Positions 9,867 through 56,192 of a stretch of 64,000 bases of DNA are shown here, piece by piece. Both the position numbers and the translations under genes were made by a program. The first letter of the stretch is position 1; every line of letters starts with the position of its first letter. The notes under the pieces were generated by a model. The model saw nothing but the letters and a program-made list of their open reading frames with translations. It did no database searches and was not told the origin of the DNA. Location of the stretch: positions 9,053,764-9,117,763 of the forward strand of contig CM082590.2 of NCBI GenBank assembly GCA_040954595.2, given 5' to 3'. The DNA is from Balanoglossus misakiensis (taxonomy: Eukaryota; Animalia; Hemichordata).

Positions 9867-11873
9867 ATGTCGTCACCAGCGGATATCACTCTTTCGTTGC
9901 GGAAAACCATAAATGTAATGTTTATGGGAGAAAGCAGCACGGAGCAGTTTGATAGTGGTAACGCCTACTTTGTGTCGTCTGCGGAACATCGAGTACTTCC
10001 GGGTTTCACCCAACAAGGTAAGGGTTTGTTTACGTGTGTATTAATCATGGTTAGTCGTGGTCATTTGATGTTCCAAACAGGACAATAGTACAGGAATTTC
10101 AAGATAAATTCGTTGTTGCTGTAATGATCGAAACGGAGACCGTTGTGTCAAGCCCTGGCACGAATTGACAAGGTCATATCGTCACACAAAGTCACAAATA
10201 CAAGCTATTCCATTAAAATCTCTGCTTGAGAGATAAATAACTTCAGTGTGTCTTGTTTGATGTGATTGATCAATAGATTGCAGTTATGTCTGGGAGGAAG
10301 CCAGGAGAACCAATCAGACCACTCAGCTTGAAGACTGCTTGGTGAGAAAAACTCAACAACTGATCCATCATCTCAGGAACGACACTCTTTCAGAGAAAGG
10401 TAAACTTGATTAATGCTTCTTATTATCTTTCCACCCAAAAATTAAAAAATATCTTTCCCCGAAAAAATAACTTACATTGACAACAATCAAGTCATGCCAA
10501 GGAGGGGTAGAAAAGGATTCTTAATCGCTATTCGTGTGTATTTGACAGAAAAATCAACCTTGGTCAACTTCCTGTTTGAAAGTGGTGCCATCTCTCTGGA
10601 AGTGACAACCAGCCAATTGCCACGCCCTGAAAGCCAGTACCATGGAAACACCAGCGAAAGAGTGTGTCACCATGACGATGGCACGTATTCTGTGGTGCCG
10701 GAAACTAACATGGGAATCACTGACGTTAAAAGTATTGCTGTCGACTCGGAAATGACACAACACGAAAATGAGGGCTATCAAGCGAGACACTGTGACAATT
10801 TGGATGTTGATACCAGACAATGCCAACCGAGCTTGACAGCAATAACCGGCCAGAAATTTGAGAGTGTGAGAGACATTGTGGATAATTTTGACAGCATCGA
10901 TGAACAGTCAGGAAATTCAAATCGAGAGAACTCGAAATTGTATCCGAATGTCGGAATTGACAATGCAGCGTTGTATCGACACGCCGGCGAAGGAAGTTCG
11001 CGCGCTCGCGGAGACGTCAGTTTTGTGGAGAGTGTCTCTTTCCCAGCTCAGTGTCTGGAGAATGTCACCCAATCGGAAATCTCTCAATGTGTGGATGAGA
11101 ACGAGAGCAAGGATGAGATTGTCATCAAAGAGGAAAGCCCTGGGGATGACATTGTGTACATGTGTAACCCTGAGAGGCCATCAGTGTCACGTGTTGGTGA
11201 AACGACCGAGGCAGACCGCCTGAATGTGGAAATAGAAGCAGAGTCTGACAGATCGCAAATCTTCATCCCCCCTTCTGAGACCTCCCAGGCACTGACACGG
11301 CCTAAACAAAACATCCAACCATTCAGACCCACAGCCAACACTGCAAAAGTTCCAAAAGCCCGGTTAAAACTCGGACTATTGTCCGTTGCTGGCTACAACA
11401 AGAAAAGATCCTTGAAAGGACGATACTTTGTGTGTAATCTATGCTCAGCAGGGTTTGACAACAGAAGTCGGCTTCTAGCCCACATGAAAAGTCACACTAA
11501 GGGTGCGCAGAAGAAGGCCGTGGAATGCAAGGACTGTCGGGAGAAATTCAACAACAAGGAAAGCCTGGTTGCCCACCAGAGATTCCATATCCACACTGGA
11601 GAGACCCCTTTCCAGTGCGACGTCTGCGGAAAAGCGTTCAAATTCCGCAACCGGTTGATCTCGCACACCAGGACGCACACCGGGGAGAAACCTTTCCAGT
11701 GTCTCATGTGCAATAAACGTTTCAGCGACCGGTCCAACCTCAACGCCCACCGCAGGGTGCACACCGGAGAAAGACCTTTCGACTGCTCCGTGTGCGGGGC
11801 CAGTTTCGGACACCGATCCAACCTCCGGAAGCACTACCTGAGATACCACAGTCGAGATGCACCTCCGGTCTAA
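9867..11873 (+). CDS. ZNF-1: C2H2 zinc-finger protein (5 fingers) with the shared novel N-terminal domain
   Basis: Exons 9867-10017, 10277-10399 (123 nt), 10549-11873, joined by phase-1 GT-AG introns. HTGEKPF-type linkers. Exon 2 = DCSYVWEEARRTNQTTQLEDCLVRKTQQLIHHLRNDTLSEK. Confidence 0.9.
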
Positions 11874-12027
11874 AGGAAAACATTTCTCAGAAGAATCCAT
11901 GTATAAATCGAACATTTTAGATGCACAGTGAGATATCAAATGGATTCTGCCATCAGACAATTACATTACTTGGGTTTTTTTGTCAGACATTGACACTGCA
12001 AAGATCAATTATTACCAAATCTTTGTA

Positions 12028-13642: not shown

Positions 13643-13941
13643 TGTGTTTATTGTACTGTCCAAAGCATGAAGTGAAAAGAACAATTTACAGTGACCTTTG
13701 CTTGTCAGAAATGTTGAGGGCGCTCTTCACTTGTAACATGTCATAGACGATCGTTGCCCTTTAATCCACTTTCCCAGAGATTTCCTTTTGTATAAACCAC
13801 GTGGTACGTATTCGCGGTCTGCCTTGAAGGTCACAGTAACCTTGAAGCCACTGTTCTCATTTCAAACATGAAATAGCGAATAAATGGTCTGGTTCTTGCT
13901 TGTTCTGTAGAGGGCAAGTCGCGAAAAGATTGAGCCAACCC

Positions 13942-14201
13942 TGTTCATCACAGGACAGGTGTCACTAAAACAGCGTGTTCCAGTCGAACTATATCGACCT
14001 ACCTATTAATTAAATTCTATATTTGGGGACAGAATGTATACTATTTGGGAACACACGCAAGCACATCTGATTTTAATAAAAGTGTTCATCACAGGACAGG
14101 TGTCGCTAAAACAGCGTGTTCCAGTTGAACTATATCGACCTACCTATTAATTAAATTCTATATTTGGGGACAGAATGTATACTATTTGGGAACATACGCA
14201 A
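13942..14201. repeat. Direct repeat of ~119 bp (13942-14060, 14083-14201) in the divergent SULT-A/SULT-B intergenic region
   Basis: TGTTCATCACAGGACAGGTGTC...ACTATTTGGGAACA(C/T)ACGCAA occurs twice, nearly identical. Confidence 0.9.
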
Positions 14202-18007: not shown

Positions 18008-20888
18008 ATGAGCACCGCCGCAGATATCAGTCTTTCCTTCCGCAAGACCATTAATCTCATCTTTGCCGCTGAAGCCGAGAACGCTCAGCGACAAACCGTC
18101 CAGTCGTCTGCTGCCAGCAAGCAATGTCCACTTCCGGGGTCTAATGGTGACATCGACAAGGAGCCTCTCTTGTTATCTTCACAAGGTATGGAATATTCTC
18201 AGGATTATTTCTCCGCTCCACCGATCTAGATAACAATATTCAGAAGTAAAAAACGCTCATTATATTCCTCAGTTTCGCAGAACAACAGCATGTACGTGTA
18301 TGTTATTCATACATGAATAAATTATATTTATTACCGGAATAATTCATGAATTTGCATATCAAATAAACTAGATAATGGTACATGTGGGTAGTTGTTATCT
18401 ATTTCAATACACAATGAAACTTGATTTCATTTTGGCAGTGCTTTTTACGATCGTGGTAAGTCGGACTTTATATCTCGACATTATAGTGTCACAAACGAGG
18501 TAATTACTAATAAAGTATAGTTGTGTATAACTGGTATTATTCCTGTCAAAAATATTGCAACACTCTCAGTAAACCATCTCATTATAGCAGTGATGATCAT
18601 TATGGAAGATAATCCCTAATGTATAAAGCATCTATAGCTTGTTAATATTGCAAAGCCCAGCAGCAAGCATTCCCGTGTCAGCATTATTTAATAATGAATT
18701 ATAGGCAAGGGATATTATACATAATAAGGGGCCAGGGTAGGGTTGTGTTGCTATTGTATTCTAAGAGAACTGCTTTGTTGCAGTTTATAATAAAACATGT
18801 CTTCGTCCATTCCCACAAACTGGACTATGCTGAGATAATTTTAAATATAGATCATGGTCAATGGCCTTTAATTGTCAATAAATTTTGATATTATATATTT
18901 TTCTATATCAGTTGTATAGTGATGTTTTTAATTCCTAAATGAGGCTCACCAAAGAGACATTATACCACATCAATTTTTGACTTTTCACCTTGAGCCAATA
19001 ATTTTTTTTGTAATTTTTTTCCTGTATCACAGATATGACTCTATCAGGCATACATTTTATTTTTTGAAACAATAATGACCTCTTCACTCTTTACTTTTGC
19101 TGTGTGTGTGTACTGATAACTGACCCACAATTTTCGTCTCCTCAACTTTTCAGATTGTTGTTATCTCTGGGAGGAAGCCAGAAGAGCAAACAAAGTGACT
19201 CAGCTGTGGGACTGTTTTGTCAAAGTTACCAATGAAATGTTTCACCGTCTCACTCATAATACACTCTCAGACAAAGGTATGTACTTTACCTGTATCTTGT
19301 TTGTTTGTTTGTTTATGTATTTGTTTGTTTGTTTGTTCCAGAACCAGTAGTTTTGGAGCAAAGTGACACTGACACTACTTTTCTGTTGGTTCTCACAGAG
19401 AAAGCCAATATTGTCAACTTCCTGTGTGACTGCGGCGTCATCAAAATGCAAGTGACCACAGCATGGATGTCCGGCGAAGATCTTCCGGAACCGTGTGGTC
19501 ACGGAATACGGCAGCAGGAACAGAACGGCAATGCACAGCAGTCGGAACATCCCGTGCCAGAGACGCTCGTTGAAAATCATTTCCCGGATCCTCCTGTACC
19601 ATCGGAAACGATTCCAACACAGTCTGGTGGATCTGGATGTACGCGTGATCAGGGTACACAAGTCGGTGAACAAAACCCGTGCTCGCAGAAAACTGGTCAG
19701 AGGAATGAATTCGCCAATGTTAGGATCAAAGAAGAGAAGGAAGAAGTCGGGGAATTGTATCACGCGTATAAGGATGAGCCGAGGGATGTTGAAACCCCTG
19801 CAAATAATAACATACAAGAAATTCGGAACTCTGCGATTAGATTGCAACAGAATACTGCAGCATCTGTCGTCAATAGGGGAGATTCCATTGTTGAGCAGGG
19901 GGGAGAGCCATCTGGAAGAGATGTTGTGAGGCAGGGCAGTGGGGATCTTGGTGGTGAACTGTCTGGGGTTGACAGTACAGAGTCCGGGCAGGATGACGTG
20001 CAGGGTAGACGTGGAACCCAACAGGAGAGGGTTGAAGCGGCCAGTGGAGTCACTTACCGGCAGGTTATTACTCGGAGAGGTTCATCGCAGCAACACAGGA
20101 CTGCAGCAAGTTCTGCCGCAGCGCAAAGGGCGGGGTCGTCACGTGAATCTGGCAGTCTTTCTCGCGGAACGCAAGTTGACGTTCAGTTGAGCGGTACCAC
20201 AGGACGCTCGTCACGCGAATCTGACGGTCTTTCTCGCGGGATGCAAGTTGACGGTCAGTCGAGCAGTACCACAAGACGCAAACTGAAGGAACCGAAGATC
20301 GTAGACGGATTAATCCACTGCCCGTTCTGTCGGCGATCCTTCAAAACCCGGACCACCTTCAACCAGCACATCGTGATTCATGACATGGACCGCCCGTACG
20401 AGTGCACCCGATGTAACATGACATACAAACGACGGATCCATCTGACGGAGCACATGCGCGTGCACACAGGCGAGAGACCTTATACCTGCGAGGTGTGCGG
20501 CCGCGGATTCACCCGGAACATGTATCTGGCGGTCCACATGCGAACGCATACCGGCATTAAACCCTACCACTGCAATATCTGCGGGATGAACTTCAGTCAG
20601 AAACAGATTCTGAACCAACACGTACGGCGACACTCTTCAGAGCGCCCGTTCTCGTGCACAGACTGCGGAAAACGATTCCGCACCGAGAGAGATTTAATCA
20701 GCCACACGCGGGTCCACACAGAAAGGGCATACACCAAGTGTAAAATCTGCAGCAAAAAGTTCCTCTACGCGAAAAGTTTACTCGGCCATATGCGAATACA
20801 TACTGGGGAGAAACCTTTTGAATGTATAACATGCGAAAAAAAATTTAGGTTTAAAGTTCAGTTTGATAATCACATGAAAACTCACTGA
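18008..20888 (+). CDS. ZNF-2: C2H2 zinc-finger protein (7 fingers) with the shared N-terminal domain
   Basis: Exons 18008-18185, 19154-19276 (123 nt), 19399-20888. Exon 1 starts MSTAADISLSFRKTINLIF; exon 2 = DCCYLWEEARRANKVTQLWDCFVKVTNEMFHRLTHNTLSDK; exon 3 starts EKANIVNFLCDCGVI. Confidence 0.9.
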
Positions 20889-21849: not shown

Positions 21850-24800
21850 ATGCATTTTTCGATCTGTAAAAAGATCGAGGTCGTACTGACAGAATATGAG
21901 GCCAGTTTCGACCCCGGAACACCGAGATCCGAATCGCCCCAGATGCAAGATGGACTTCATCTTGGAGGGTCAAAACTCGACCGTACAAGCTCGACTAGCT
22001 GTCTTGGACAGTCGAAACCACTCACTCAAGAAGGTCAGTCGCCCTTTTTATATCTCTGTTTAATCCACAAATAGCTGTGTTGGTCTCCCAGACCCACGAC
22101 CAGATCCCTGTCGAATACAACATCAGCCAGCTCATGGCCATGTAGACCCATTTGCAAAATTATCTCAGTATCTGATTCAGTGAGTGACTAATACTATTAT
22201 AGGCCTACGTCTGTAAAATTTGATCGAGTATGCGACTGAAATGGCCACAACATTAGCCAAGCTTACCAATAAAGCCTTAACCCATGATCTTGTAGCAATA
22301 GATCTTTTGTTAGGTTCAAGTTCAACAAACCAGACTGAAATGAGTGAAAATGTAGTTTTAATTGTTTCAAAACTGTTGTTATGGTAATTGCAGATTGTTC
22401 TCAGATATGGGATGAAGCAAAGAGAAACGATAAAGTTTCTCACCTTGGAAACCATTTCCTGAAAACAACTCAAGAATTATTCCATCACCTTAACAGCAAT
22501 ACTTTATCAGAAAAGGGTAAGTTCAGGGCCAAGGTCAACAAAAGTCAAACTCATACATTTCCATGGTGTGTGTGATCTTGGTGGAGTACCCCCTAACCCT
22601 TTATTAGTTTTAACAACCTCATTTTTTGCTTCATTGCTGATATTCACTGTTTCGTCGAATCGCACAATTTTAATATTTTTGGTTCTTTTTCAGAAAAAGC
22701 AACTATTGTCAACTTTCTGTGCGATAGTGGAGTCATTCAAATGCGTGTTAGAACCACGACATGCGTTGAAAACGATGAACAGCAGATTGCAAGGAGGACG
22801 TCTGGAGACGGTGAAGTTTGCCAAGATGGTGGTGTGCGTCAGACAGAGGAGTCTTTACCTAGCCTTGTTAGAACTCACCCCCCTGAGGGTTCCAATTACT
22901 CCACGAGTTGCCATGGTAATGAGGAAGCAACTGATAGACTGCATGAGTATGATGCCTCGGCCGTTCAACTTGGAAACAACAGCAGTGACTGTAATGTTAC
23001 CAGTCAGTACAGTATGAACGAAACAGCTCAACTGCATTCCAGTGAGAGGACCCCCCAGCTTCCTCAAAGTGAAAACTGGCCCCCTCAGCCTCACACATGT
23101 GAAATTAAGACTCCTCAACTTGCTGATGACAGTCTGATTCCTATTGAGAGCTCAAGGAAAGAGACTCCTCAATTTCATAATTCTACACACCCCAGGAAAT
23201 CGTCACAAGAAGTCACAAATACTGTCTCTCAGAACGTCGTTGACCCAAGTCAGACAGAGAGGATCGAAAAATATGTAAATGAAAGTGAAGGCGCTGAAGA
23301 TTATTTGAACGATAGCAAACGTTTACTGCCACGGTCGTGCAGATCAAAAAGACTGAAGAAAAATATGATGAAAATGAGACGGTTCTTGTGCGACAATCGT
23401 GAGAGTAGAACTTTTGGAAAAAGTTGTTCCAAAGACATCTCTAATTCGGCTATGGAATGCTGGGAGGAAACTGGACAGCAGAGGATTGTGGGAAATGTGC
23501 AGGGTATAAGTAATGAGGTCAGAGGTCAGGTGGACGATTCGCTGCCGAGGATACAGAACTACTACAGCATTCCTGATGTTGAAAGTGTTGCTTTCCCATC
23601 TTCCGAAGTGGTTGTTCCCGAGAACGAGGGAGGAAATCCGGAAGCTGGTGGTGATGAAGGAGAATGTAGCGCTGATCCCGGAAAAGTCACAATAAAGAGG
23701 GAGAATCCAGAGGATGGAATGGCGGATCGGGATCCGGAAGCGGAAAATCCTGGACAGAGTTTGTCAGCTTGTGATGTTGGATTTTTAGAGAGTGTGACGT
23801 ACCATGCAAATCTGTCGGAGGAAAGTGTTAGTGCAGAGAGAACTAGCCATTACCTGTGTGAGGAGACACCCCCTGTTTGCTATAGCAACCAGGGTCAAAG
23901 GTCGGATGACGACAGCATTAGTCGGAATACTGATCTTGCTGTTTCGAACCCTGCGCTTGCAAAACAGAAAGATGGTTTCAGCGCTGTTGGTCCCGCAATC
24001 CGGAATGGGGAAAGCATCCTGGTTGTATACCAACCACTGAGTGATACCCACCAGGCCGGTGGGAGTGAAGGGAATGGCGGCCAACCGGTCGGAGGGGAAA
24101 TTTACGCGGAAAGAGTGCCAACACCCAAAGGGTACCAGTGCCAGTTCTGCGGGAAACGACTGGACTCCAAGAGAAGCCTTGCTCTTCACAAGAACGTACA
24201 TGCAGGTAAGCACGTTTTAACCCGTTCCCCCAATGGTTTAGTCCAAATCCATTGTTTTCTATGGTAAAGTTGGACCTCTACAGAGGGAAATGGGGGTGAA
24301 AGGCTTAAACTTGGGTGACTGGTAAATGATCTGCCAAGTTTAAACATGTAATCTATTTTACACCTCATGTAAATCAACATCACAAGCTATAGTTAACAAT
24401 GGCAAATTCTACTATTGTACATGTACAATCATATTGTAGTGTATGTTTACAAGTCTGTTTTTCTATCATTTCTTATTTGTTTATCTCTTGTTGCTATGAC
24501 TTCACCTGCATCATCATCATCATCATCATCATTATCATCATCATCATCATCATCATCATCATTGAATACTGTTGATGTAGGTCAGTGACTTGTACAAAGT
24601 TCAGTAGATAGTTGAAAGTGTCAATCGAAATGTCCATGGCGATAGTTACTCATGAAAATTTCTCTTAACACATTTTTTTTCTCGTTCCTAATCAGGTAAT
24701 CCCATCCGACTGTCAAAATCCCGATCTTGGACGAAACTTTCCCGGAACAACCGAGCTGTAGCCACTCAAGTCCGGGAGAACGAAACCAACTGGACGATCG

Positions 24801-26122: not shown

Positions 26123-28090
26123 ATGTTGAACATGACTGAACTCGATCCCATGCAAGTCACACTTCAAAGAACAGTCAGCCTAGAGTTTAGGCGTGATGTC
26201 AACACCAGGGCAGAGAGAAATGACAGATTTGTAAGACCCAGCTACGCAGAAAATCTGACACAAACAGGTAGGTATTTTGGTCTGTGATAATAAATCTGAA
26301 AAGCTATAAACCCAACAGGTAACATGACCTGAAAGTCAACACATATTTTTCAAGCACTGTTAAAGCTATTGTCTGTCTTATTTTTATTCTCAAGACATAT
26401 CAAAATATTGCTTCCCTCTGTGGCACCTGTCAAAAATCTTACATCTGCCCCCCCCCCCCCTCAGAAATGAAATGGTTCTCCCTTAATGTCCCTTGATTAC
26501 AGATTGCTGTCATCTCTGGGAGGAAATGAGACAAACGAACAGACTGGGAAATCTCACAGATTGTTTTGTGAATTCGACTCAAGATCTACTCACCCGTCTC
26601 CAAGACAACGCACTAAGCGACAAAGGTAAGTTCACCCTTAAGTGTAGAATTAATAGCTAGATAGGTAGTCTCTTCTGTTTGACTTCTCTTCAGAACGCGC
26701 ACCCACCCCAAGACATCTGTGATTGGTTAGATCACGCCTTCCCCGTGGTAACTGTTGGTGAATTTGCATAGGTGACTGCAGTGTGTACCTTTATGGTAAT
26801 TTTCATTATTTCGCAGAGAAAACTGTTGTATTATACTTCCTAATGGATATCGGAGCGATTGACATAAAAACCCCGGCCACTCTGCAAAGCGCTGCATTGC
26901 CTACGGGGATCGCGTTGAGTGACCCAGGAAACCGCGACAACCAAGGATTCTCCGAAGTTGACCGTCAACAACCGACACAAATGGACACACTGTCAGTCAG
27001 GGTCAAAACTGAACCTGAACACGATTCGTACCCAAATCCCTCAAGGAATGAAAACTCAGACACCCATTCCGTTGCCGACCCAACAAACGACAGCAGTTTA
27101 TTTGTTAAAGGTGAAAACAATAGAGATATGTGCACGTGCGTCAGTGTTCATGAAGAAAGGACATCCACTATTGAAAACGTGAATGCAGAGATATTCAACA
27201 CAGACGTTGCAAACTTCACCAACAATACTAACAGAGATGGTCTTCAGAGTTTAACCTTTCCAGACTTTGCACCAGATAGTTGCCAGGAGGAAGAACGTGC
27301 ACCTAATGTCAAAGTTGAAAGGTCAGAGTTCACAGGGGATACTAGTAATTCTGCTGGAAATTCCCTGTCAGATTGGTTCAGAGGTGAGAGTTCAGAGGTC
27401 AACATGAATGCTAATAATGTGTCAAATGAAAGATGGCAGGGCCAGCAACCGACAGAAGAAAACAATGGACAGAAAAAGACAGCCAGACCTAAACGTAAAA
27501 GGTCAAAGTTCAGTGGTGTTGGGGGTCAGAGGTCAGATGAAAGATTGCAAGACCAGCGACTAACGGGAGAAAATTCATCGGAGAGGACGGACAGTTCTCA
27601 ATATGCAGAAATAAGACTGCGTCGTCGGACTAGGAGAAACAGACAAATGCCTTTGCGTGTTCCGGAAGGTGAAGATAACACGGCAACCCACAGCGGAACG
27701 TCGCATTCCATGCCGGGGGTGACAGGGTACGTGGTGGCACACAAAAGATGCCTGATTTGCGACAAGAATTTGAGCAGTAAGACTCATCTGAAAGATCACA
27801 TGAATATTCATACCGGGGCCACGCCTTACCAGTGCGTGCATTGCGGACTCTGCTTCAAGAACTCGGGGTCTTTTTCCCATCACAAGTGGACACATTCCGA
27901 TGCCGGGCGCTTCCGTTGCCAGCATTGCAACCGGAAATTCTATCGCAGGGACCACTACCAGTGCCACGTCAAGAAGCACAGGCAGGAAAAAAATTGCTAC
28001 ACATGTTCGGTGTGCGGAAAGACTTTCTCGCAGAAATCCTCGATGACTAACCACAAGAGAACGCACGCGCGCGCTGGAGAGACCACATGA
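26123..28090 (+). CDS. ZNF-4: C2H2 zinc-finger protein (4 fingers) with the shared N-terminal domain
   Basis: Exons 26123 (or 26132)-26267, 26503-26625 (123 nt), 26817-28090. Exon 1 contains PMQVTLQRTVSLEF; exon 2 = DCCHLWEEMRQTNRLGNLTDCFVNSTQDLLTRLQDNALSDK; exon 3 starts EKTVVLYFLMDIGAI. Confidence 0.9.
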
Positions 28091-29498: not shown

Positions 29499-32400
29499 TT
29501 ATACGGCAGTCATGTTGGTTGCTGAGTCTGTAACGTTTTCCATTGATGTTACGGAATCCGTAACATTTTCCTCAGGTATTACGGAATCAGTAACATTTTC
29601 CTCGGACAGTACGGCATCTGTAACATTTTCCTCAGATATTACCGGATCCATACTATTTTCCACATATGTTACTGAATCCGTAACATTTTCCTCAGATATT
29701 ACGGAATCTGTATCATTTTCCTCAGATAGTACGGCATCTGTAACATGTTCCTCAGATATTACCGGATCCATACCATTTTCCACATATGTTACTGAATCCG
29801 TAACATTTTCCAGGGATGTTATTCCGTGCACCTTCATGTGGCACTCCAGTTGGCTGTCGAGTCCGTACCGCTTGCCGCACACCGAGCACTTGAAGGGTTT
29901 GATGTCGGCGTGCTTTCTCATGTGCTTGTCGAGCCTGGCTTTGTGCTTGAAGCGATTGCCGCACAGTCGACACATGAAGGGTCTTCGTCCCTTGTGCACT
30001 CGCACGTGGTTGGCCAGGTACTGCTTCTGGCGGAAGCTCTTGCCGCAGTCGGGGCAGTCGAAGGGCCCCTCGTTGTAGAGGTGCACGTTCAGGTGCGACT
30101 TGTAGTTGGAGCTGCAGCTGAACGATTTGCCGCACTGATCGCAGGTGAAGGGCTTCTTGCGAAGATGAATGATGTTGATGTGCTGACTCAGCTGCGACTT
30201 CTGCGAACACTTCTTGATGCAGTACGGGCAAGAGTAAGGTTTCTCGCCGGTATGTACACGCTTGTGGAGCACCACATTATAGGGCCGGGTGAATTTCATG
30301 TCACAGAGATCGCAAGAGAACGGTTTCTCCCCCGTATGCATTCTCATGTGACCCCGAAGATTACTGCTCTGGCAAAAGCTCATATCGCATACTTTGCAAA
30401 CGTATGGTCTTTCTCCAGTATGGATCCTCATGTGTAGAACGAGGTTCTTGTTGTCACGGAAACCCTTCTCGCACACGTTACACTTATAAGGTCGTTCGCC
30501 CGTATGTCGTCTCACGTGAATGACAAGCTCGTGTTTATTCATGAACCGCTGACTGCAGTAGCTACATTCGAAAGGTTTCTCCCCGGTATGTATTCTCTTG
30601 TGGACTCTGAGCGCGTAGCTGTCGTCGAATCGCTTCCCACACTGATCGCACTGACAGCGTTTGATCCCAGCGTGCCTCTTCATGTGTTTCTTAAGTATCG
30701 CTATCGTTCGCAACTTTTTCCCGCATAATTTGCATTCGAATTTATTCCCAGGTGGATTCACCCAGTTGCTGCCTCTTGTCCTGGCTCTGTAGTTATTTGA
30801 ATAATCGTTGACGAGATCAAAGACCGGTTTCTTTTCTGGAGTCTTGTTTGTTTCGCCTACAGAACTCTGGACTTCAAATATATTTCTTATCTGTTCAGTT
30901 GCGCTCTTGGTCACCTCAAACATCTTTTTTATCGGATCGGTTGCGCTCCCGTCCCCCGAAACAGCGCCCTCTTCAGTCTTGTCAGCCACGCTTGCTGAAC
31001 ACGAACTTTCCGAGTCCATGTTTTGGGCGTTTATCGGGTCAAAGCCAATGTCGATGTAATCATCAAAGTCACTCGTGTCATCATAGCCGTCAAGGTCGGC
31101 AACGACATCGTAGTCGCTGTCATCGCTATCATCACAGTCTTCATCTTCCTCCTCATTATCATCATCGTCGTCATCATCATCTCCATCATCATCATCATCA
31201 TCACCATCATCATCGTCATTAGAACCATCACTTGTTTTTGCTTTTTTACTGTCCGCACCACCATCTTTATCTCGGCGATCAATCTCACCAGAATCACCTT
31301 CTGCTTGTCGGTCAGCACCCATGCCAAAATTCACGTATATCTCGTGGATGTCATCTGCAGAGTCACCACCGTCTGTTGTTTGTGGTTTGTCAGTTCTTCC
31401 ATCACCTGTAGCCGTAGATCTGGACACAGCACCACCAGTACCTTCATCATTTCTGCCATCGCCATTCTTTTGGCTTCTGTTTGACTTTTCGGGATTTTCA
31501 GAACGTGCAGCATCAGTCGGCGTGTAACCCTGAACAAAGATGACCTCCGGCACTGGACTGTCTCTGAGCGACATGAGAGTGCTCAGAATGTTGTCATGGT
31601 GACGGCCTTCATGTTTCACCGATCCCTCTGTTCCATTCACTGTATTCCCCTGTTCCATTCCGGAATCCTTCTCTCCACCATCCACTCCGGGCTCCGGCGA
31701 ACCTCGCGATCCGGAACTCTCGCACACAGCCATCCTGCTAACACCGGAATCGGGCAATTCCTGGCCGGAAACCAAGTCTAGAGTCTCGGCACATTTTCCA
31801 GTCGAAGTACAAACCCACAGATCCCCTGTGTCGTCGCTATCCTCAATTTCTTCTTTAATCTTTGTGATTATTTGACAACTGATTTGGTCTCTGTCACACG
31901 CCATGTCATCCTCTCGTTCCACTTTTACGGTAATCGCGCTGAAATCAATCTCCCCTATGGCATCACTGTTGCTGTCCCTGGGCCTGGGTCCATCATGGAC
32001 ATTGGTGATCCTGCTGGTTCCACTACCACCATTGCTGGCCCTGGGCCCATCACTAACACTACTGCTCCCAGGTCCACCACTGACACCCTCCGACAACTCA
32101 GCTCTTGCTTCACCTCCACCGCAAGGCAATCCATTCTCTTCACGTGAATTGCTAGAAACCCTCTCTTCCAAATCAGTCTTGTCTTCACTCCCACACTGCA
32201 CTGCTGTAGTCATGTTAACATTGATGACCCCACTCTCACACAGAAAGTTGACAATAGCTGATTTTTCTGTTGGAATAAAAACAAAAGAATTCCTGTATTA
32301 TACTGAAAGAAACGAACTTGGCACCTTTTCATATCACCTTATTTTTTTCGCATAAAGTAATGTTTTCAGGTTTGAATTAAATTGTAACCATTCTTTTGGT

Positions 32401-37755: not shown

Positions 37756-38201
37756 ATGATCCCGGGCGAGCACATCAGGCTATGTTTAGCGAGATCTGTG
37801 AGTTTAGTGTTTGCAAGGGAACGCGAGAAATCGCCGCTCCACACACCAGGTTCCGAAGCCTCACAAGATCAAAGGATAACTCCGTACGATTCCAATGTTT
37901 TGAGCTCCCAGGGTAGGTTTATTTATCGCTTACGGGTCGACGGTATAATATACTGCTCCTAAACCATGGTTCGGGGCTTGAGAATGGGGCCTTTGAAACT
38001 AGTAATCGTGGTATCAGTACTATCACAGGACTTCGATGTTGTGTGTTTGTGATGTACATTTCATGGTGGTGTTGCCAGGTTGATCTGTATATGGGTGCAC
38101 TGTGTACATCGTGCTTGTAAATTTCACTGAAATTTGTCACAAGTGCTGTCTCGTTTTGGTCAGTTTCCATAGTGATCGGCCTTCGGGCTTTGTGTTACAA
38201 T

Positions 38202-38236
<35 letters not shown>

Positions 38237-40822
38237 GAGGTAATATGAATAACCATGTTGATTTCTACCAATACATGTAATAATATTCATACATTTGTAG
38301 TCTCATTTTCCACCAATGCTTGTTCTTCACCACAGATTGTAAATATGTCTGGGAAGAAGCTAAAAGGACCAACCAAGTCACACATCTTGGTGACTGCTTC
38401 TCCAAATTGGCTCAAGATCTTCATTCACGTCTTCATCAAGATGAACTCACACAGAAAGGTGAGTCTGGAAAATCATCTTCCCAAGAATCCATAATAGCCC
38501 AATGATTATTTGCATAACAAGAGAAACAACAGTTATGTTAATAGGCTTCTATTGTTTTGCCACAATTAAAGAGCTATGGCTTTTTATTTTTCGACAGAAA
38601 AAGCAAGAATCATCAACTTCCTGGGCGAAAGTGGTGTGATCGAAATGCGTGTGAACACAGCCGTACTTTATAGTGAAAACATCAACAACACTAACAGGGT
38701 TACCAGAGAAAGTCCTTCTCCGTGTGAAGACTCAAACAAACAAAGGAATGATGTGGGAAATGTTGAGCGAAATTCCCGGACAGATGAGGAAGATACGGAT
38801 ACTGACATTCCCAGTGGGAAGAACATGGAAAGTTGCCATGAACACCAGGAGACGCCCGTTTGTAATTCCAAGTCCCGATCACAAGACGATTTACATCAGT
38901 TATCTGGAGAACAGTCCAGTAGACAAATCCAGATTAAGAAAGAGTGTGTTGGAAACACACAGGACACATGTATAGATCCACAGAGAGACGAAACTCCGAC
39001 ACCTAATATCAATTTTGGAAACATCGGAACTTTGGAGTACTTTGAAACCAGGCCCAGCTATAATGATGAAGCTTGTGGACGTGTTGATGAGACAGAAAAT
39101 ACCGGTGTAGACAGTTCTAACGATCGCAGCGCAGGAAGTGTTGATGAAGACAGTGATAAGAATCGTGATGAGGGAAGTCCTGTGTGCGCGAAAGATAACA
39201 TTACTGTTGTAAAATTGGAAGAGGACGATGATGATGAAGTTGAAGAGATTACCCAAACACCAGCGGCCTATTATGTTTCAGAGGGACAAATTCTCTCTCG
39301 CAGTCCCCCTGTCAATCACAGACACACAGACAAAAATTTGCATAGGGGTGTCACGGCAACAGAGGGGAGAGAGACGCAGGACAGTGGAGTGTTTAAACTC
39401 AGAATAGATAACGTACAGAGCTACGCTACAGATGTGCATAATGAGAACGTTCCGGTCGCTGGGAATGAAGCAGGTATGGACAGGCATGGGAACGGAACTA
39501 TCAGTGTGGAAAAAACGCCGGATTTGGTTCCGGAAAACAGGTATTCTTCCCAGAGTGATGAAGATGTAATAGTGATACCCGCAGTGGAGAGAGGTCTTGT
39601 CGATAATGTCTCTCGCGTCAGTGAAAATTGCCAAGAAGTAGACATTGTGTATAGTGGACATGGAAGAGGATTCGGTGGCATGGCGGGGACTAGTGTGTGC
39701 AATGATAAAGCGAAACAGAGCATGGAAATTCAAGACTCAAGGACTCTTTACACCCGGGACCAAGCAAGCTATCACCACCAAGGGACAAGGGTGCCCTTCA
39801 ATGGTGACAGAACGATTCGCGATCAACGACGGGACGGGAATATCGGATTTGAAGAAAACTGTAATCGAATTCAAGGAATGAGGACTGTTCTTGCGATCGA
39901 TAAACACCACCCCGGCGGAAATTTACCAAGAGGGAAAATTGCTTATGCTGTTGACCAGAATGTAGTACGACAGGTACAGGTATCCAGACATGTCAAGGAC
40001 TTGCACAGCAAGCTGGATTACCTCGACCGACTCAAACGGCAGCTGGCACCCAGCGGTGTTCGTTCTGACGCCGGCGCGATCGACGTCGAACAGGGGCAGG
40101 AAACGCACCCCGGGTTCACGTTACGTGAAGTGGACTTCGCCAAGCAAGTGCAGCAGATGAGAAGGGACAGTGGTGTCAAACAGGATTTGTCGCGAGGGGC
40201 GATGTTAACAACTAGCGCAGGAAACGCGCATATCGCAAATAGCGGACACATGACCATTCCTAGTGTGGGCGCGGGTGAATTAAGGAAACGCGATTTGAGC
40301 AATTCGTTGCCGAAGGCTAGTTTGCCTCAAGGTTATAGCATCCCAAACAAGGGAGTCGATTCTGCATATGTTTTGAACATGGGCAGGCAGAACTCGCTTG
40401 ATGGCAGTTCGCTGAAACGGAAACTGACAACGAGTCACGCATATTCATCGCAACCGTCTACAAGCGGAGAATCAGCGAAGCTTAGCAGGGTTCAGATCAA
40501 CAGGAACTTCAAACCTCCGGAACGACCGTCGTCGCGACTCGGCGGACCGTTCTTCAGCTCGCAACGGAAGTACGGGATACAACCGGGCGATCAACGATAC
40601 CGGACGTTCTTGCGGTTGAAGGGCGACAGGAAGGCAGCAGCGCTAGTCAAGTGTACGGAGTGCGGGAAGTTTCTCTGCAGTCGTCAGAGCCTCAGCCGTC
40701 ACATGAGGACACACACGGGCGAACGACCGTTTCAGTGTCAAATATGCGACAAGCGGTTCAGTCTGAAACATCATCTTGCCACTCATATGCACGTGCATCG
40801 ATCAAAGAACTTTGACCCTTAG
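37756..40822 (+). CDS. ZNF-6: C2H2 zinc-finger protein (2 fingers) with the shared N-terminal domain
   Basis: Exons 37756-37912, 38336-38458 (123 nt), 38598-40822. Exon 1 starts MIPGEHIRLCLARSVSLVF; exon 2 = DCKYVWEEAKRTNQVTHLGDCFSKLAQDLHSRLHQDELTQK; exon 3 starts EKARIINFLGESGVI. Confidence 0.9.
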
Positions 40823-49305: not shown

Positions 49306-52300
49306 ATGGCTAGTGCAGAGTACATTTCCTTCGCTCTAAGTCGGCAGATAAGCTTAGTATTCGCAGAAGACGTGAGTAACTCTCAGGACAAGAGGTCACC
49401 AGAAGGTCATGCTCAGGATACGAATCTGACACTCAACGGTAAGTTCAAGTGATCAGATCGTGATCGATAAACAAAGAGTTTTACTCTGCTCATCGTCACC
49501 TATTATGAGATCCACTAATGTATGATATTCGTTATTCTCGAGGAAAATATTTCCTTTCTGTACACTGACGTACAGGTACATCCCAGTATAACAGATAACA
49601 CAATGTTTATTTCACCCCCCCCCCCCCCCAAATCTCTAGAGCTCCCATCTCCATCTCTTGTTTGTTAATCAGAATAGACTTCATTATTATTTCCGATCTA
49701 TGACTTACATACTTGTAATTTCTGTTTAAATGCTCTCTTGTTATATCTGCATGTGCAAACCCGTTCCCCTTTAGCTACACCTCATTCAATTGTGGACTAT
49801 ACTATAGAAACAAGTTGTGATGTAACTTGCAAATTATACATGTACTGGGGCTTATATAAGAACATGGTTGTCTGGCATTTCATATAGGGATACATTGCTT
49901 GTAGTTTTGTGTCTCATCAGTAGGTACTGTTTTTGCTAAGGTTGGTGGGGAACATTGGTAAATGATATAGGAGCCATGGCAACACCGGTATGCTACCCAA
50001 TCAATAACATATGCAAGGGTACCCCAGTGGTATTTACCTGGATTATACCATCCTTTTCCTTAACAGAAAGAACACTGATCTATATAGAGATCATGTATAA
50101 GGATAGGGAGGGATCATAATATTATGAGTGGGGGTATGGAGTCTGTAAGAGGCCTATGACATCATCATGTTACTTGTAGAGCTGTCTCCCTCCTGCAATA
50201 AAAGTCATCTCATTATTTTTTCAGACTGTGAGTACATTTGGGAAGAAGTGAAATATGCGGATAAAATCAGGAAATTGGGCGATTACTTTGAAGAGAGCAG
50301 TAAAATGCTGCTGCAACAATTAATGAAAGATCAGCTCTCTCAAAAAGGTAACATTCTCTCAAAATGGTGTATATTTTTAAGTGTTCGTATAGGGTGTGTC
50401 CATTAATTTTACTAGTATTCCATACAGTGATGTTTTGAAAAATGATATAGAATTGGTCACTCAGATGCATATACACTATACAATGACCAGTTTATACAGT
50501 TAATTTAAATTTGTTCATATGCATCTCAGTGTAACCAAATTTATTTCAGAACAACAAAAAGCATAATGAATTGAAAGACAATACAATTATTTTCCTTTGT
50601 GTTACAGACAAACAGACGATTCTGAATTTTCTTTGTCAAAGCGGAGCTGTCAGTGTGACAATGGAATCTTCAAGAAACACTTCTTCACAGAAGAAAGGTG
50701 AAAGTTCCACTCCAAGGGTCCAGAAACTACCAGTTTCCATGGAAACATCCACATCTCAGTATCCTGAAAATATATCGGATAATTTATCAGCGAAAGACAT
50801 TCCAACGATATTCGCAGACTCAAATTCTGAAATCTTTTCCAAAAATGTTGTTGGCACAAGTTCACAGTGCAGTGATCGGCCCAGACACGCCAAGAGGGAT
50901 ATGGGTACCACAGAGGGCGGCTTGAAGAAACCAATGTCCAGCTTGGGTAAATCGCCCTCCAGGAGATTCAAAATGGGAAAACCGAGGAGATTTGGAATCA
51001 AGAAAGAAGTGATTCCTGATTACGAACTTGTAGAGGCAACATCTTTGAATCAGGATGTTAACGATCAAGACGGCTGTGTCTCTGAATATGCACCAGTAAT
51101 GCAAGGTCATGTGATACAGAAAGACAATGACTATGTATCAGGTGACTACAATGGAAAGAGAACAATGGCTGTTGTTCAGGAAGAAGATAATGTGCACGCT
51201 GACAGTTCAAATGGAGTTTCTCGTAACAATCCTGTGGGGTCTGTTTTTCAAACAGGTTCATCTGACAATACAGCGATGCTTCGTGCCGACCACATCATGG
51301 CTGATCAAAAGATTGCACTTGATGCGAGCGTGATCAAATCAGGAAGTGGGTGCGAAACTCAGAGCAGTGTTAGTGATGTAGAGAGCACTGAACACAGCGT
51401 GGATCGCTCAGAAGGGAAATTTGACGATGAGCGAAGTTGCGAGGAGTTCGAATCATCAGAAGATGTTCCGTGCAATGTCGAGATTCCTGGCAGCAGTTAC
51501 ATGTACAATGCCGGAGAAAGGAACAGTCATTCAAATCGGGAAGATTCTGGAATATCTAAAGGTGACGTCAGTTTCGTGGAAAGTGTCTCTCATCCAGGGG
51601 GGTCTCGTGAGTACCGGTCAGAGGTCAAAGGTGAAAGTGCACCGTCTGCTGTTAAGGTTGAGTTAGAGCAACGTGCTGTTTCTGACCAGGGGACTTTGCC
51701 TGTGGGAGATTCGACGTCGCAGTTTGACAGCGCGAATTCGGCTGTTCAGGACTTTCAGAATTTCAACCCCGAGGGCGCTGTGCTCGGCGCCGACGTCAGG
51801 GGCGCGGGGCTCGAATACGTTATGCAAATGAGAGGTGGAGACTCGCCGAGCAATGACGGGCGCCTGTACGAAGTTGTAACGCAAGGCGGGAAAACGTCCT
51901 ATCAGTGCGTCGAATGCGGGAAGAAATTCATGCATAAACGTAGTGTGAGTTTCCACGTGCGCATGCATAATGAGCGCAGGATCTACACGTGTAATATATG
52001 CGGGGCGAAAACGCTTTGGAAGAGCAGTTTCCGACGCCACCTGAAACTGCACACCGGCGAGGAACTCTTTGATTGCCACCACTGCGGGAAAAGTTTCCAG
52101 ACGAAATGTATCCTGATGTGTCACATGAGAAGCCATACCGGGGAGAAACCTTTCAAATGCGACGTCTGCAAGAAGTCGTTCAGTCAGAAGAACGTTCTCA
52201 AGACGCACATGCGCGTGCACACGGGTGAACGACCGTACGAGTGCCACTTCTGCAAGCGGCGCTACAACAGCAAGGACTATCTGGCACGACACGTCAAATT

Positions 52301-52424
52301 CCACACCGAGAAGAAGAACTTCCAGTGCGGACAGTGCGAGGCCATTTACGACACCAAGCGCGAGCTGTCCGCCCACATGTGGGTGCACACGGTCGAGGCA
52401 ACGTATCTGAGTGAAAAGAACTGA
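49306..52424 (+). CDS. ZNF-8: C2H2 zinc-finger protein (6 fingers) with the shared N-terminal domain
   Basis: Exons 49306-49438, 50225-50347 (123 nt), 50608-52424. Exon 1 starts MASAEYISFALSRQISLVF; exon 2 = DCEYIWEEVKYADKIRKLGDYFEESSKMLLQQLMKDQLSQK; exon 3 starts DKQTILNFLCQSGAV. Confidence 0.9.
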
Positions 52425-53554
52425 CAAGGAAAAGTTACCCTTTCACCACAATGGTTCAGTCCGAACCCATTGAAAGCTTAGAGATGATCATATATCTTTA
52501 ATTGCAGCATTTAAGATTTAGATTTCATTGTTGTTTGTGAACTTGGGTGGTAAATATCCACTGAAAAACAGTAATTTCTGAGTTTAGGTTCTACAAAGGC
52601 AGAAATCAGTGAAAGTGAGTTTATTGAAAATATTTCACAGAAGATTGATCAGTGTTTTATGTTGTCCCAATTGATGACACTTTTTTATTTCTATCACATT
52701 GTCAGCAAACAGGTGAAATAAAGAATTAAATGACGATAAATCTTGTTGGTCTCTTAGTATATTATTGGTATGATTGGGATTGTGTGGATGATGTATATTC
52801 TTTGTGTGGTATGTTTAGATGAATGGCAGTCCTATCATCATTGTCAACATTGATGAATGTCTACTCCAGAAACGATTTCCTTTCCTCTACCAAACAACTG
52901 AAGAAAGCTGGTCTTTATTCTACTCATGAACACAGACAGAGAATTGATAATTTTTTGTACAGCTATGCAAATAATTCACACAATTATTTGGAAACAACAC
53001 AAGTTAAAAGAAAGCTGAAATGAGTAACTTTTTTGAGTTTGAACAAAATATAGGAACCTCAGACATACACAGCAAAGGAAGAAAATGCTTTTAAACAATA
53101 AATTTGTTTTATTTTCTTCTTACAACAAGGTAAACAAAAACATGACCCCGCCCTGGACCACGCCTACTTGTTGTGTGCCCTCTACGTTCAATGTGTCGTG
53201 TTACAAGGAGACTGAAATTCGTGTCAAATTCCCATTTGATTTCGGATTCCTTTCGGCTTAGAGAAACGCGTAAAAAAGCGACTGATTTCTTTTACTTTTT
53301 CAAGTCAGAACCACACTAACTACATTATCTGAGTCTACAGTAGGCATTAATTTACAGCCTAAAGCGTAAAAGTAAACATTTTGTCCCTGTACTTTAACTT
53401 GATTCCAAACCCGAATCTGAATCTGAATCTGGCATTAACTACAGTGTCAGGTCATGATAAGGTCACCACACCACCTCTGTTTACCAAAACACGTTGATCT
53501 TCAGATCGACGTCTAAAAGTGACTTTTTATCAATGAAAACTGTTTAATGTGAAC

Positions 53555-56192
53555 ATGGATCGCCGAGAAGACATCTCCTTTCGTTTGAGCAGGACAGTAA
53601 CAGTTGTTTTTAACCCAGATTCCGAACACAACGCAGATGTCAACGCCAGGCAACAGTGGACGCATCTTCCTCTGCAAGGTCAGTGTGTACACTTCATAAT
53701 AACTTTGCACTTTCTTGGATCTTTCTTTACGGGGGTGGTTCTCCCTGAGTCAGGAAGACACATCTGTAAAGTTGGACCTCTGAAGAGGAAAATAGGGGTG
53801 AAAGGGGTTAAGGGTTTACTACAGATTTCACAGAACTGAAATATAAACAGTTGTATTTCCCACTATTTCAGACTCTGAGTACATCTGGGAAGAAGTGAAG
53901 TATGCGGATAAAATCCGGAAGTTGGGTGACTACTTTGAAGAGAGCAGTAAAATGGTACTGCAACAGTTACACAGTGATCAAGTATCACAACATGGTCAGT
54001 TGCTAAATATTTCCATTTGTCTCACTTTTGTACGCAGCTAAGTATTAACAGACCTGCGACAGGATTTGTCTGAAACAGGTCCGTCACAGGTGACGTCCAC
54101 TGCAGCAATGGCTGCAGGGCAGACCTGCCACACATCTGACCATTCACATTCAAGAACAGATTCTCATTTCCCACTTACTTACAGTTGTTTTCCGATTGAA
54201 TTTCCAGGAAAATCCAGTATTTTAAATTTTCTGTGCCAGATTGGTGCCATCAGTGTGGATATGGGATCCTGTTCTCCGGAAATATCAGACGGAGTAACGA
54301 TTCCAGGATTGACCTCTCATGGAGTAGGTGATACCATTTTCCGCCCAGCCGAGCAAACGAAGGTCACCCGAGGTCAACCAGAAGATTCTGGAGATGACAA
54401 TATGGACATTGCCACGGAGACTTCTGATAACACAGTTATATATTCGGAACAGGAAAATGACAGCGGTCGCGAAAATGTGGCAGAGTTTCCCGGGATAAAA
54501 GTGGAACCGAATTCAGAGGATGAGAATATGTTTCATGTTGTGGAACAGGAGATGCCGGAGATCAAAGGGATCGTTTCATCCGATGGACAAGATGCGGAAT
54601 TTTTGCGGAATGATGAGGGAGATAATGTGGATACCATAGGGAGGAGAACATTCCGTGTTTCGGAACCACTGAGGAGAAGTCACAGAAAATCTCGCGGCAG
54701 AAAAGTAAGGAAGCTTGCATCTGTGCGTGAAGGTGATAGTGTGAATGTGGAGTCAAATGTGATATCTGAAGTGCAGTCTGAATCTGAGGCTGGGTACGTT
54801 GGCATCAAGGAGGAGTCTAGTTCGGGACAGACAGCGACTGAAACTGCACCACATCCAGTCGCTGTGAAGGAGACCACTGTTGTGTTGCTGCATCACACTG
54901 CAGCTGATGGCAGCCCAGAGGAGATTCCAGACTGCGGCAGTGCTGTTGCTGTCCTTCCGCGCAGTGACAAATACAGAGACAGTGCCGCAGTAGTAGTGCA
55001 CAGCGACGACTCAGGGGGCAGAACAGCAGCGCTTCAGACCACAGTATCTGCTGCAGCATCATACAGTGATGTCACAGGAGAATTCAACAGTGCAGCAGGC
55101 TTGTACAGCAACGCACTTACATCAGTGAGCGCTGTTGCAGACAGCAACATAATAAGTCACTCGCAACCTAGCTATCAGAGTGTGGACCATAATAGACTTG
55201 ATCAAAATACCACATCTGTGTCTTCCGAACCGGAAGATAATATTCTGCAGGACCACAATAGCACACCACTCAACAAAGATCGGGGAAAACCTTCTTCAAA
55301 TCCATACACACCTGTCCAAATTCGAAAATACAACTTTAAACAATCTCACAAGCACGTCGTCCGCCGAGATAATAAGGAACGTCCACACGCCTGCACAGAG
55401 TGCGACAAGAATTTCGTGCACAAGAAAACCTTACAACTACACATGCTTCAGATGCACCATGAGAAGAAAGTGTTTTTCTGCGGAATTTGCGGGGCCAAGA
55501 CGATGTATAAAAGCAGCTTTGATCGCCATATGACCCGACACATGGGGGAGCTTTTCAAATGCGAGTTCTGCCAGAAATGCTTTCGCAGTGAAGTGGTGCT
55601 CGCCTCGCACCGGAGAACGCATTCCCGTAAAAAGACATTCGCCTGCGAGCTGTGCCCGAAGAGATTCGGTCGTCAAGGGCAACTCCAAGTGCACTTAGAT
55701 AAGCACGCAGCCGGCAAAATCGCACACAGAGGACCAAGCACTGCAGGCAAAAACGTTCAGTTATCCAAGCCCAGTTCTGTTGGACGTCTTCCACAATTTT
55801 TGCGCCGAGAGCAACGTAGAAACACCGTAAGAAAATCTAGCATTTTGGCCAGGGAATCAGCACAGGAAACAGGGAGGCCTTCTGGATTAGACCAATCAAG
55901 TACCACCGTGGCCAGGGAATCAGCACAGGAAACAGGGAGGCCTTCTGGAGAAGACAAGCGATATGTTTGCAAGGTGTGTGGGATTCGCACACGTTGGAAG
56001 GGTAGTCTTTCCCGACACATGAAAGTTCACGAGCGGAAACTCAGCTGTGAAACTTGCTCCGAAGGTTTCAGTGATCTTGACCACCTTCAGAGACATTTAG
56101 ACGGCCATTCTTCAGGGAGAAGCACTCATCCAAGTCTCACTACTTCGGTGTCCCCGGAATCTGAATGTGCTACGAACAAGCCTGCAAGTTGA
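53555..56192 (+). CDS. ZNF-9: C2H2 zinc-finger protein (4+2 fingers) with the shared N-terminal domain
   Basis: Exons 53555-53678, 53872-53994 (123 nt), 54208-56192. Exon 1 starts MDRREDISFRLSRTVTVVF; exon 2 = DSEYIWEEVKYADKIRKLGDYFEESSKMVLQQLHSDQVSQH; exon 3 starts GKSSILNFLCQIGAI. Confidence 0.9.

What the first reader, a model, noticed from the sequence alone, without database searches (positions are those of the whole stretch)
9867..56192. Unrecognised tri-exonic N-terminal domain defining a tandem C2H2-ZNF family (KRAB/ZAD/SCAN-analogous system)
Seen in sequence: eight ZNF genes (ZNF-1 to 6, 8, 9) share one architecture that the ORF track shows only in fragments. (a) Exon 1 has an alternating hydrophobic motif ([117 protein letters not shown]) followed by a variable-length spacer. 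(b) Exon 2 is exactly 123 nt and phase 1/1 in all eight, consensus DCxxhWEEh(K/R)xx(N/D)xhxxLxDxFxxxTQxLxxxLxx(D/N)xLSxK. (c) Exon 3 opens with (E/D/G)Kxx(I/L/V)(V/L/I)NFLxxxG(A/V)Ixhxh, then a long unalignable linker and 1-11 fingers. Established: vertebrate KRAB, insect ZAD and SCAN families have this layout, with a small conserved effector exon upstream of one large linker+finger exon in rapidly diversifying clusters. The motif lacks the KRAB DV/MLENY signature, the ZAD CxxC pairs and BTB features. Inference: this is a lineage-specific effector or dimerisation domain (about 75 conserved aa; predicted strand, helices, then strand) that recruits co-repressors to targets such as transposons.
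Basis: partly seen in the sequence, partly recalled or inferred. Interest (0 to 1): 0.92.

Follow-up and report, generated by a model that had tools for sequence, protein, structure and literature searches.

The report
Acorn-worm zinc fingers with SETDB2-like head
Eight neighbouring zinc-finger genes share a conserved front domain found so far only in acorn worms, and its predicted fold best matches the uncharacterised front domain of the human gene-silencing enzyme SETDB2, so it likely lets these DNA-binding proteins pair up and might link them to that enzyme family.

Summary
Eight C2H2 genes share an exon-1 strand motif, a 123-nt phase-1/1 exon and a conserved exon-3 start; all 16 introns are GT..AG. 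RefSeq proteins of the acorn worms Ptychodera flava and Glandiceps talaboti join the same three pieces (22 of 23 profile hits). The 62-residue core is indel-free in 31 of 31 rows and 97% identical between orthologues whose linkers are 30% identical.

No named family matched. Two AlphaFold models, however, rank the human SETDB2 amino-terminal domain (PDB 5TFP) first: Foldseek probability 0.96 (E 0.18; next unrelated row 0.13) and VIA Z 5.8, 58 of 59 residues, no gaps. These scores are modest and sequence searches miss the link; I put homology at about 70%. The module also heads a QRICH1/DUF3504 protein, so it is portable.

Finger tips of some genes are conserved across two worm genera and the paralogues are old, which argues against a pure transposon arms race. 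Most likely this is an oligomerisation module of SETDB2-N type. Binding partners, expression and repression are untested.

The parts
9867..11873 (+). Z1: exon 1 9867-10017, exon 2 10277-10399, exon 3 10549-11873; 5 fingers
   Evidence: groups with P. flava P0006 (99/96, core 76% identical)
18008..20888 (+). Z2: exon 1 18008-18185, exon 2 19154-19276, exon 3 19399-20888; 7 fingers
   Evidence: orthologue P0001, core 60/62 identical, linker 30%, fingers 74%
21850..24267 (+). Z3: exon 1 21850-22033, exon 2 22394-22516, exon 3 22694-24267; 1 finger; start codon uncertain
26132..28090 (+). Z4: exon 1 26132-26267, exon 2 26503-26625, exon 3 26817-28090; 4 fingers; most divergent core
29499..33804 (-). 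Z5: exon 1 33804-33600, exon 2 32901-32779, exon 3 32266-29499; 11 fingers
37756..40822 (+). Z6: exon 1 37756-37912, exon 2 38336-38458, exon 3 38598-40822; 2 fingers
   Evidence: groups with P0002/P0003 (99/98, core 81%)
49306..52424 (+). Z8: exon 1 49306-49438, exon 2 50225-50347, exon 3 50608-52424; 6 fingers
   Evidence: fingers 69% identical to P. flava P0008 and 73% to Glandiceps P0018
53555..56192 (+). Z9: exon 1 53555-53678, exon 2 53872-53994, exon 3 54208-56192; 6 fingers
   Evidence: nearest P0014/P0012 (88/92)
19153..19463 (+). Example of the 62-residue helical core (Z2): exon 2 gives helices 1-2 and the N-cap of helix 3; the start of exon 3 gives helix 3, the invariant Gly and the last strand
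   Evidence: AF2 models of relatives P0001 and P0013; column counts; top fold match 5TFP
11016..11036 (+). Linker motif V-x-F-V-E-S-V in Z1 (also 23776-23796 + in Z3, 51567-51587 + in Z8, a variant at 31524-31544 - in Z5)
   Evidence: pattern drawn by eye from these same sequences

Best explanation
These eight genes are members of an old acorn-worm family of DNA-binding proteins whose shared three-exon head is predicted to fold like the amino-terminal domain of the H3K9 methyltransferase SETDB2 and likely serves as an oligomerisation module. Shown: the gene structure, the family, its conservation and its taxonomic hits. Predicted: three helices from exon 2 and the start of exon 3, with the exon-1 strand joining the exon-3 strand across a disordered spacer of variable length. 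Inferred (about 70%): common ancestry with the SETDB2 domain. Inferred (about 60-65%): the helices pack between chains, so members form homo- or paralogue heterodimers that double the DNA contacts or bridge sites, as ZAD, SCAN and BTB heads do. Speculative (about 25-30%): the same pairing would let a finger protein co-assemble with a SETDB2-type enzyme and bring H3K9 methylation to its sites without TRIM28.
For: Fold: AF2 model of P0001 1-129, pLDDT 92-97 over residues 61-110, elements E11-19, H61-73, H77-96, H102-114, E118-126; model of P0013 1-71, mean pLDDT 86.6, three helices, C-terminal strand not formed without exon 1. Foldseek on the core model: 5tfp_B and 5tfp_A rank 1-2 of 17, probability 0.96 and 0.94, TM (target) 0.65 and 0.69, next row 0.13. 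VIA-align over 48,161 chains: 5tfp_B is the only row at Z>=5 (Z 5.8, rmsd 3.3, 58 of 59 aligned, ranges 5..62 and 5..62; next 4.1); 5tfp_A Z 5.9, rmsd 2.9, 57 aligned. The P0001 model also ranks 5tfp_B first (Z 3.5, rmsd 2.9, 57 aligned, 62..118 on 6..62). The gap-free registers both put the family's invariant Trp (31 of 31 rows) on chain residue 12. Recalled, not from any call: residues 12 and 14 of human SETDB2 are Trp and Glu, which would match the two invariant residues of helix 1. Both domains are N-terminal in nuclear proteins of deuterostomes. For an interface: helix 3 is hydrophobic at core positions 46, 47, 49 and 50 in all 31 rows, helix 2 has a stripe at 18, 22, 29 and 33, pTM is only 0.49-0.61 despite high local confidence, and the core is far more conserved than the linker (60-97% against 24-32% in seven orthologue-like pairs). 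The module is portable: it precedes QRICH1 + DUF3504 in P0017 and is repeated four times in P0015. Precedent for dimerising heads: PMC7913770, passages.
Against: The structural scores are modest: Foldseek E 0.18, and the tool warns that Z under 8 (about 13 for helical bundles) may be a common arrangement. In one search the top row is tied with unrelated rows (3.5 against 3.4 and 3.2). Foldseek on the full-length head did not list 5TFP. None of eight HMMER searches of PDB sequences listed 5TFP at E<=10. The two models share 21 alignment rows, so they are not independent. I found no paper on the function or oligomeric state of the SETDB2 domain. A shared fold shows no function.
Confidence: 0.5

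Rival explanations
1. The head is a lineage-specific invention whose three helices only happen to resemble the SETDB2 domain; it acts as a private dimerisation or effector module.
For: No sequence-level link to 5TFP in eight searches; 16-18% identity in the structural alignments; hits only in two hemichordate genera and one unnamed fragment; the exon-1 strand lies outside the 5TFP match.
Against: The same target ranks first for two paralogue models and two programs, covers 57-58 of its 59 residues without gaps, and stands clear of the next rows.
Confidence: 0.25
2. The head is a cofactor-docking module rather than a self-association module: it would bind the ATF7IP coiled coil, as the N-terminal helices of SETDB1 do, and so recruit the H3K9 methylation machinery.
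For: [quoted passage not shown] A V-x-F-V-E-S-V-like linker motif (7 of 31 proteins) resembles the ATF7IP FNIII-binding motif, described as ITEFSL-like with key V/I and L three residues apart (PMC7706265, passages).
Against: That paper does not mention SETDB2 (0 occurrences), and nothing here shows that the SETDB2 and SETDB1 N-termini are related. The linker motif ends in V, not L, its pattern was drawn from the same sequences, and 24 of 31 proteins lack it. SETDB2 is not in the three supplementary files of PMC7706265.
Confidence: 0.18
3. Whatever the head does, the family is a KRAB- or FiNZ-like transposon-silencing array in an ongoing arms race.
For: Tandem clustering and KRAB-like layout; a P. 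flava clade of 9 rows (100/99) with no member in this window; diverged finger tips in the Z9 and Z1 groups; general ZNF-transposon correlation (bioRxiv 10.1101/2022.11.29.518450, passages).
Against: Window paralogues are old (mean pS 0.79). Z8 keeps 3 of 6 finger tips identical, and 2 more at one change, in Glandiceps P0018; Z2 keeps 1 of 6 identical and 4 at one change in P0001. Arrays are short (1-11). No transposon binding was tested.
Confidence: 0.15
4. The three exons are not spliced together and the domain is a product of pattern matching.
For: No RNA junction read was seen here.
Against: 16 of 16 canonical introns, open reading through all eight models, held-out scores of 58-79 bits, and RefSeq proteins of two other genera with the same joins.
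Confidence: 0.02

Closest known systems
Amino-terminal domain of human SETDB2 (PDB 5TFP)
   Same: Predicted three-helix core superposes over 57-58 of 59 residues, without gaps; N-terminal position in a nuclear protein.
   Different: 16-18% identity, not found by sequence search; here it has an extra N-terminal strand and spacer and sits on DNA-binding proteins, not on an MBD-SET enzyme. No functional paper on the SETDB2 domain was found.
ZAD-, SCAN- and BTB-C2H2 families (PMC7913770, passages)
   Same: Conserved folded N-terminal head, variable linker, C-terminal finger array, lineage-specific expansion.
   Different: No CxxC pairs or BTB/SCAN motifs, no Pfam match; dimerisation is shown for those heads and untested here.
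KRAB-ZNF and cyprinid FiNZ-ZNF genes (bioRxiv 10.1101/2022.11.29.518450, passages)
   Same: Clustered genes with small conserved 5' coding exons and one large finger exon.
   Different: The head spans three exons, its last helix lying on the finger exon; it is a folded 62-residue core, not the 28-residue acidic FiNZ; the paralogues are old and some finger tips are conserved between genera.
SETDB1 N-terminal helices that bind ATF7IP (PMC12167477)
   Same: Helical N-terminal interaction module in the same enzyme family as SETDB2.
   Different: No sequence or structural match to this head was shown; relation to the SETDB2 domain unknown.

Membership tests
SETDB2 amino-terminal domain (5TFP fold) | Three-helix arrangement covering the whole domain | tested here: met
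   Top hit; Z 5.8, rmsd 3.3, 58 of 59 aligned; Foldseek probability 0.96 but E 0.18; predicted models only
SETDB2 amino-terminal domain (5TFP fold) | Significant sequence or profile similarity | tested here: inconclusive
   5TFP not listed at E<=10 in eight HMMER searches of PDB sequences; no SETDB2 alignment available for a profile-profile test
SETDB2 amino-terminal domain (5TFP fold) | Same oligomeric state and partners | not testable with these tools
KRAB-ZNF | KRAB-A signature (F.DV, MLENY; motifs recalled) and Pfam KRAB match | tested here: not met
   0 of 8 window heads carry the motifs; no KRAB family among 21 heads at E<=1
ZAD-ZNF | Four zinc-binding cysteines in CxxC pairs | tested here: not met
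   No CxxC in the first 130 residues of 8 of 8 models; no zf-AD match
BTB/POZ-ZNF | Pfam BTB match and H[KR]x[VI]L motif (recalled) | tested here: not met
   predicted core is three helices in 62 residues
BTB/POZ-ZNF or SCAN-ZNF | Fold match to solved BTB or SCAN structures | tested here: inconclusive
   Not among listed rows; absence from such lists does not exclude a family
SCAN-ZNF | Pfam SCAN match | tested here: not met
   LE[QE]F motif (recalled) absent in 8 of 8
FiNZ-ZNF | 28-residue glutamate-rich domain on one exon, cyprinid fish only | tested here: not met
   Definition from passages; this head is about 75 conserved residues over three exons
Transposon-silencing ZNF array | Binding to young transposons and repression on tethering | not testable with these tools
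   Needs ChIP and reporter assays

The most novel reading that the evidence does not exclude
The SETDB2 amino-terminal domain is an ancient deuterostome pairing module that acorn worms have attached to a whole family of DNA-binding proteins (C2H2 arrays and a QRICH1/DUF3504 protein). Through it the proteins co-assemble directly with a SETDB-type H3K9 methyltransferase or its cofactor ATF7IP: a sequence-specific silencing route with no KRAB and no TRIM28, and the first clue to what the human SETDB2 domain is for.
Probability: 0.25. Interest if true: 0.87.

Novelty: new variant of a known kind. Interest (0 to 1): 0.63.

Why it matters
Lineage-specific heads on zinc-finger clusters are a known kind, and this scan has noted several others. 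This one stands out because it has a confident predicted fold and a specific candidate relative: the solved but, in my searches, undescribed N-terminal domain of SETDB2. If the homology holds, a family of over 20 natural variants gives a ready map of the residues that matter in that human domain, dates the module to the deuterostome ancestor, and offers a direct test of how animals without KRAB/TRIM28 aim H3K9 methylation. If it does not hold, the result is still an unnamed, well-bounded hemichordate domain worth a family model.

Tried and rejected
Pfam: no family on the heads above noise (best AP5B1_N, E 0.0036, 5 of 21 rows, taken as chance on a helix). NCBIfam: six scattered weak rows. PDB sequence searches: only apolipoprotein C-I, p26, designed proteins and other noise; the queries were picked with a recalled SETDB2 sequence in mind and still did not list 5TFP. 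Foldseek with the full-head model: nothing in PDB or BFVD, and its second look gave no Z>=2. An early BTB idea and a ribbon-helix-helix idea were dropped: several antitoxin/RHH rows appear only at Z 2.4-2.8 with rmsd 6-9. ESM Atlas: ZNF692-fragment clusters at 0.77-0.79, below the tool's noise line, and no usable named hit for the core. Winged-helix Pfam rows on P0015 (Cdc6_C, CtsR_C, HTH_48) come from summing four repeats and were not pursued. RNA runs: none was listed, which is no evidence. No whole genome is held; nucleotide scans of contig collections could not be run with so short a query. SUMO-type [IV]KxE motifs are enriched in the linkers (43 against 5.4 expected) but also in ZNF-7, which lacks the head (3 against 0.5), so they are not specific. 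CtBP and PxVxL motifs: 0 in 31 linkers. Literature: ten searches listed no paper on this domain or on 5TFP; the library lacks most subscription papers, and PMC5023502 was not held.
Full report
1. Observation. The eight exon-1 motifs are in the window as quoted. A scan of both strands for open AG..GT/GC exons of five lengths with a C...W or W[DEQ]E start returned exactly eight exons, all 123 nt and phase 1/1. Joining exon 1, exon 2 and the finger exon gives eight open frames of about 510-1030 residues, with 16 of 16 introns GT..AG and 1-11 fingers; exon-1 donors were chosen among several in-frame GT sites. Each exon 2 held out from the profile scores 57.7-78.5 bits, against at most -0.6 in five shuffled windows; mean pS is 0.79 and pN 0.37 over 28 paralogue pairs. 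ZNF-7 lacks the head.

2. Family. A profile of the eight exon-2 peptides found 23 proteins at E<=0.001 among 1.84 billion representatives. Names came: 17 Ptychodera flava, 5 Glandiceps talaboti, 1 unnamed fragment. Word-seeded searches added P0003, P0027 and P0028, all P. flava. The window is therefore most likely from a related acorn worm (inference). The RefSeq proteins join strand motif, exon-2 peptide and exon-3 start as predicted, which supports the models but is not an RNA test. No Saccoglossus, echinoderm or chordate protein passed the cut-off; the profile was shallow, so the range may be wider. By my regular expression 14 of the 23 have C2H2 fingers; some of the other 9 look like truncated models, but P0017 carries QRICH1 (E 1.2e-17) and DUF3504 (E 1.5e-6) instead, and P0015 has four tandem cores. 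The 62-residue core has no indel in 31 of 31 rows, with Trp6, Glu8, Leu50 and Gly54 invariant (P0005, P0009, P0013, P0015 and P0025 left out as multi-copy, partial or isoform rows).

3. Age and targets. In a 36-row tree of only 62 columns, Z1, Z2 and Z6 have starred P. flava partners, Z8 and Z9 fall in a starred group with P. flava and Glandiceps rows, and a starred 9-row P. flava clade has no member in this window. Core identity in seven orthologue-like pairs is 60-97% and linker identity 24-32%. Finger tips (positions -1, 2, 3, 6) of Z8 are identical in 3 of 6 fingers in Glandiceps P0018 and differ at one position in 2 more; those of Z2 are identical in 1 and differ at one position in 4 of 6 in P0001; those of the Z9 and Z1 groups have diverged more. 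This is an old cluster with some stable targets and some turnover.

4. Fold. AlphaFold2 on P0001 1-129 with 21 rows gives strand 11-19, a low-confidence spacer (26-48), helices 61-73, 77-96 and 102-114 and strand 118-126. With P0013 1-71, which lacks exon 1, the three helices form (mean pLDDT 86.6) and the last strand does not, consistent with the two strands pairing (inference). Foldseek with the full head found nothing. VIA-align ranked the SETDB2 amino-terminal domain first but tied with noise (Z 3.5, rmsd 2.9, 57 aligned). With the core model it is first in Foldseek (probability 0.96 and 0.94, E 0.18 and 0.19; next 0.13) and the only one of 48,161 chains at Z>=5 (Z 5.8, rmsd 3.3, 58 of 59; next 4.1; chain A Z 5.9, rmsd 2.9, 57 aligned). 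The gap-free registers agree and place the invariant Trp on residue 12 of the chain; from memory, not from a call, that residue is Trp in human SETDB2 and residue 14 is Glu. Against this: the tools call such Z values common for helical domains, eight HMMER searches of PDB sequences did not list 5TFP, and the two models share most alignment rows. I put homology at about 70%.

5. Mechanism. Shown: gene structure, conservation, portability. Inferred: an interface, from hydrophobic positions on all sides of helix 3 and a stripe on helix 2, and from the rule that ZAD, SCAN and BTB heads dimerise (PMC7913770, passages). I favour self- or paralogue pairing. Co-assembly with a SETDB-type enzyme or with ATF7IP is the bolder reading: SETDB1 binds ATF7IP through N-terminal helices (PMC12167477, abstract, part 1 of 7 and passages; SETDB2 not mentioned), and a V-x-F-V-E-S-V-like motif in 7 of 31 linkers (4 of 8 in the window) resembles the ATF7IP-binding FAM motif (PMC7706265, passages and a search of three supplements), though it ends in V and was defined after the fact. 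Reviews read by passage (PMC13108219, PMC6408861, PMC9768651, PMC12147509) gave no function for the SETDB2 N-terminal domain; PMC10909981 had none of my terms. One notes that SETDB2 supports enhancer-promoter contacts independently of catalysis and one that its role at repeats is unknown. No complex could be folded, so pairing is open.

6. Known systems and novelty. KRAB, ZAD, BTB, SCAN and FiNZ signatures are not met. It is organised like those families but is not a member of any. Ten literature searches listed no description of the domain; the FiNZ preprint has no occurrence of 'hemichord' (its supplements are closed and could bear on this). Earlier notes of this scan list other unnamed ZNF heads in other genomes (8 of 10 shown), none with this sequence or a SETDB2 link.

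7. Verdict. A real, previously unnamed hemichordate head domain on an old ZNF cluster, probably related to the SETDB2 amino-terminal domain. New variant of a known kind; interest 0.63, rising to about 0.87 if it links the fingers to H3K9 methylation.

Noticed in passing
P0017 (P. flava XP_070546828): Same head, followed by QRICH1 (PF25561) and DUF3504 domains and no C2H2 fingers; accession is next to those of P0012, P0008 and P0014. DUF3504 is, from memory, Crypton-transposon-derived and shared with ZMYM proteins. No counterpart in the window.
   Followed up: partly
P0020 (Glandiceps XP_077996611), last 110 residues: Same head, ending in a basic, repeat-like predicted helix instead of fingers; no Pfam family. 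Possibly a third kind of DNA-binding tail.
   Followed up: no
P0015 (P. flava XP_070556264): Four tandem, diverged copies of the core ahead of 15 fingers, on another contig.
   Followed up: partly
window 46018-48537 +: ZNF-7: an 839-codon exon with one finger, no head exon nearby, separated from Z6 by about 5 kb that looks repeat-rich.
   Followed up: partly
window 12710-16918: Three intronless sulfotransferase frames (12710-13726 -, 14311-15279 +, 15965-16918 +) lie between Z1 and Z2; the middle one matches Sulfotransfer_1 at E 6e-60.
   Followed up: no
window 2175-8484 +: Exons with DED, Roc and COR-B matches: a death-effector ROCO gene upstream of the cluster.
   Followed up: no
window 35272-37633 -: Unassigned open frames between Z5 and Z6 (36908-37633, 35272-35820, 35322-35708), no Pfam match; likely exons of another gene.
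   Followed up: no
window 29499-29800 -: Z5 ends in a run of roughly ten-residue acidic repeats after its last finger.
   Followed up: no
ESM Atlas, P0004 1-118: Nearest clusters were chordate ZNF692 fragments at 0.77-0.79, below the noise line; worth one profile comparison.
   Followed up: no
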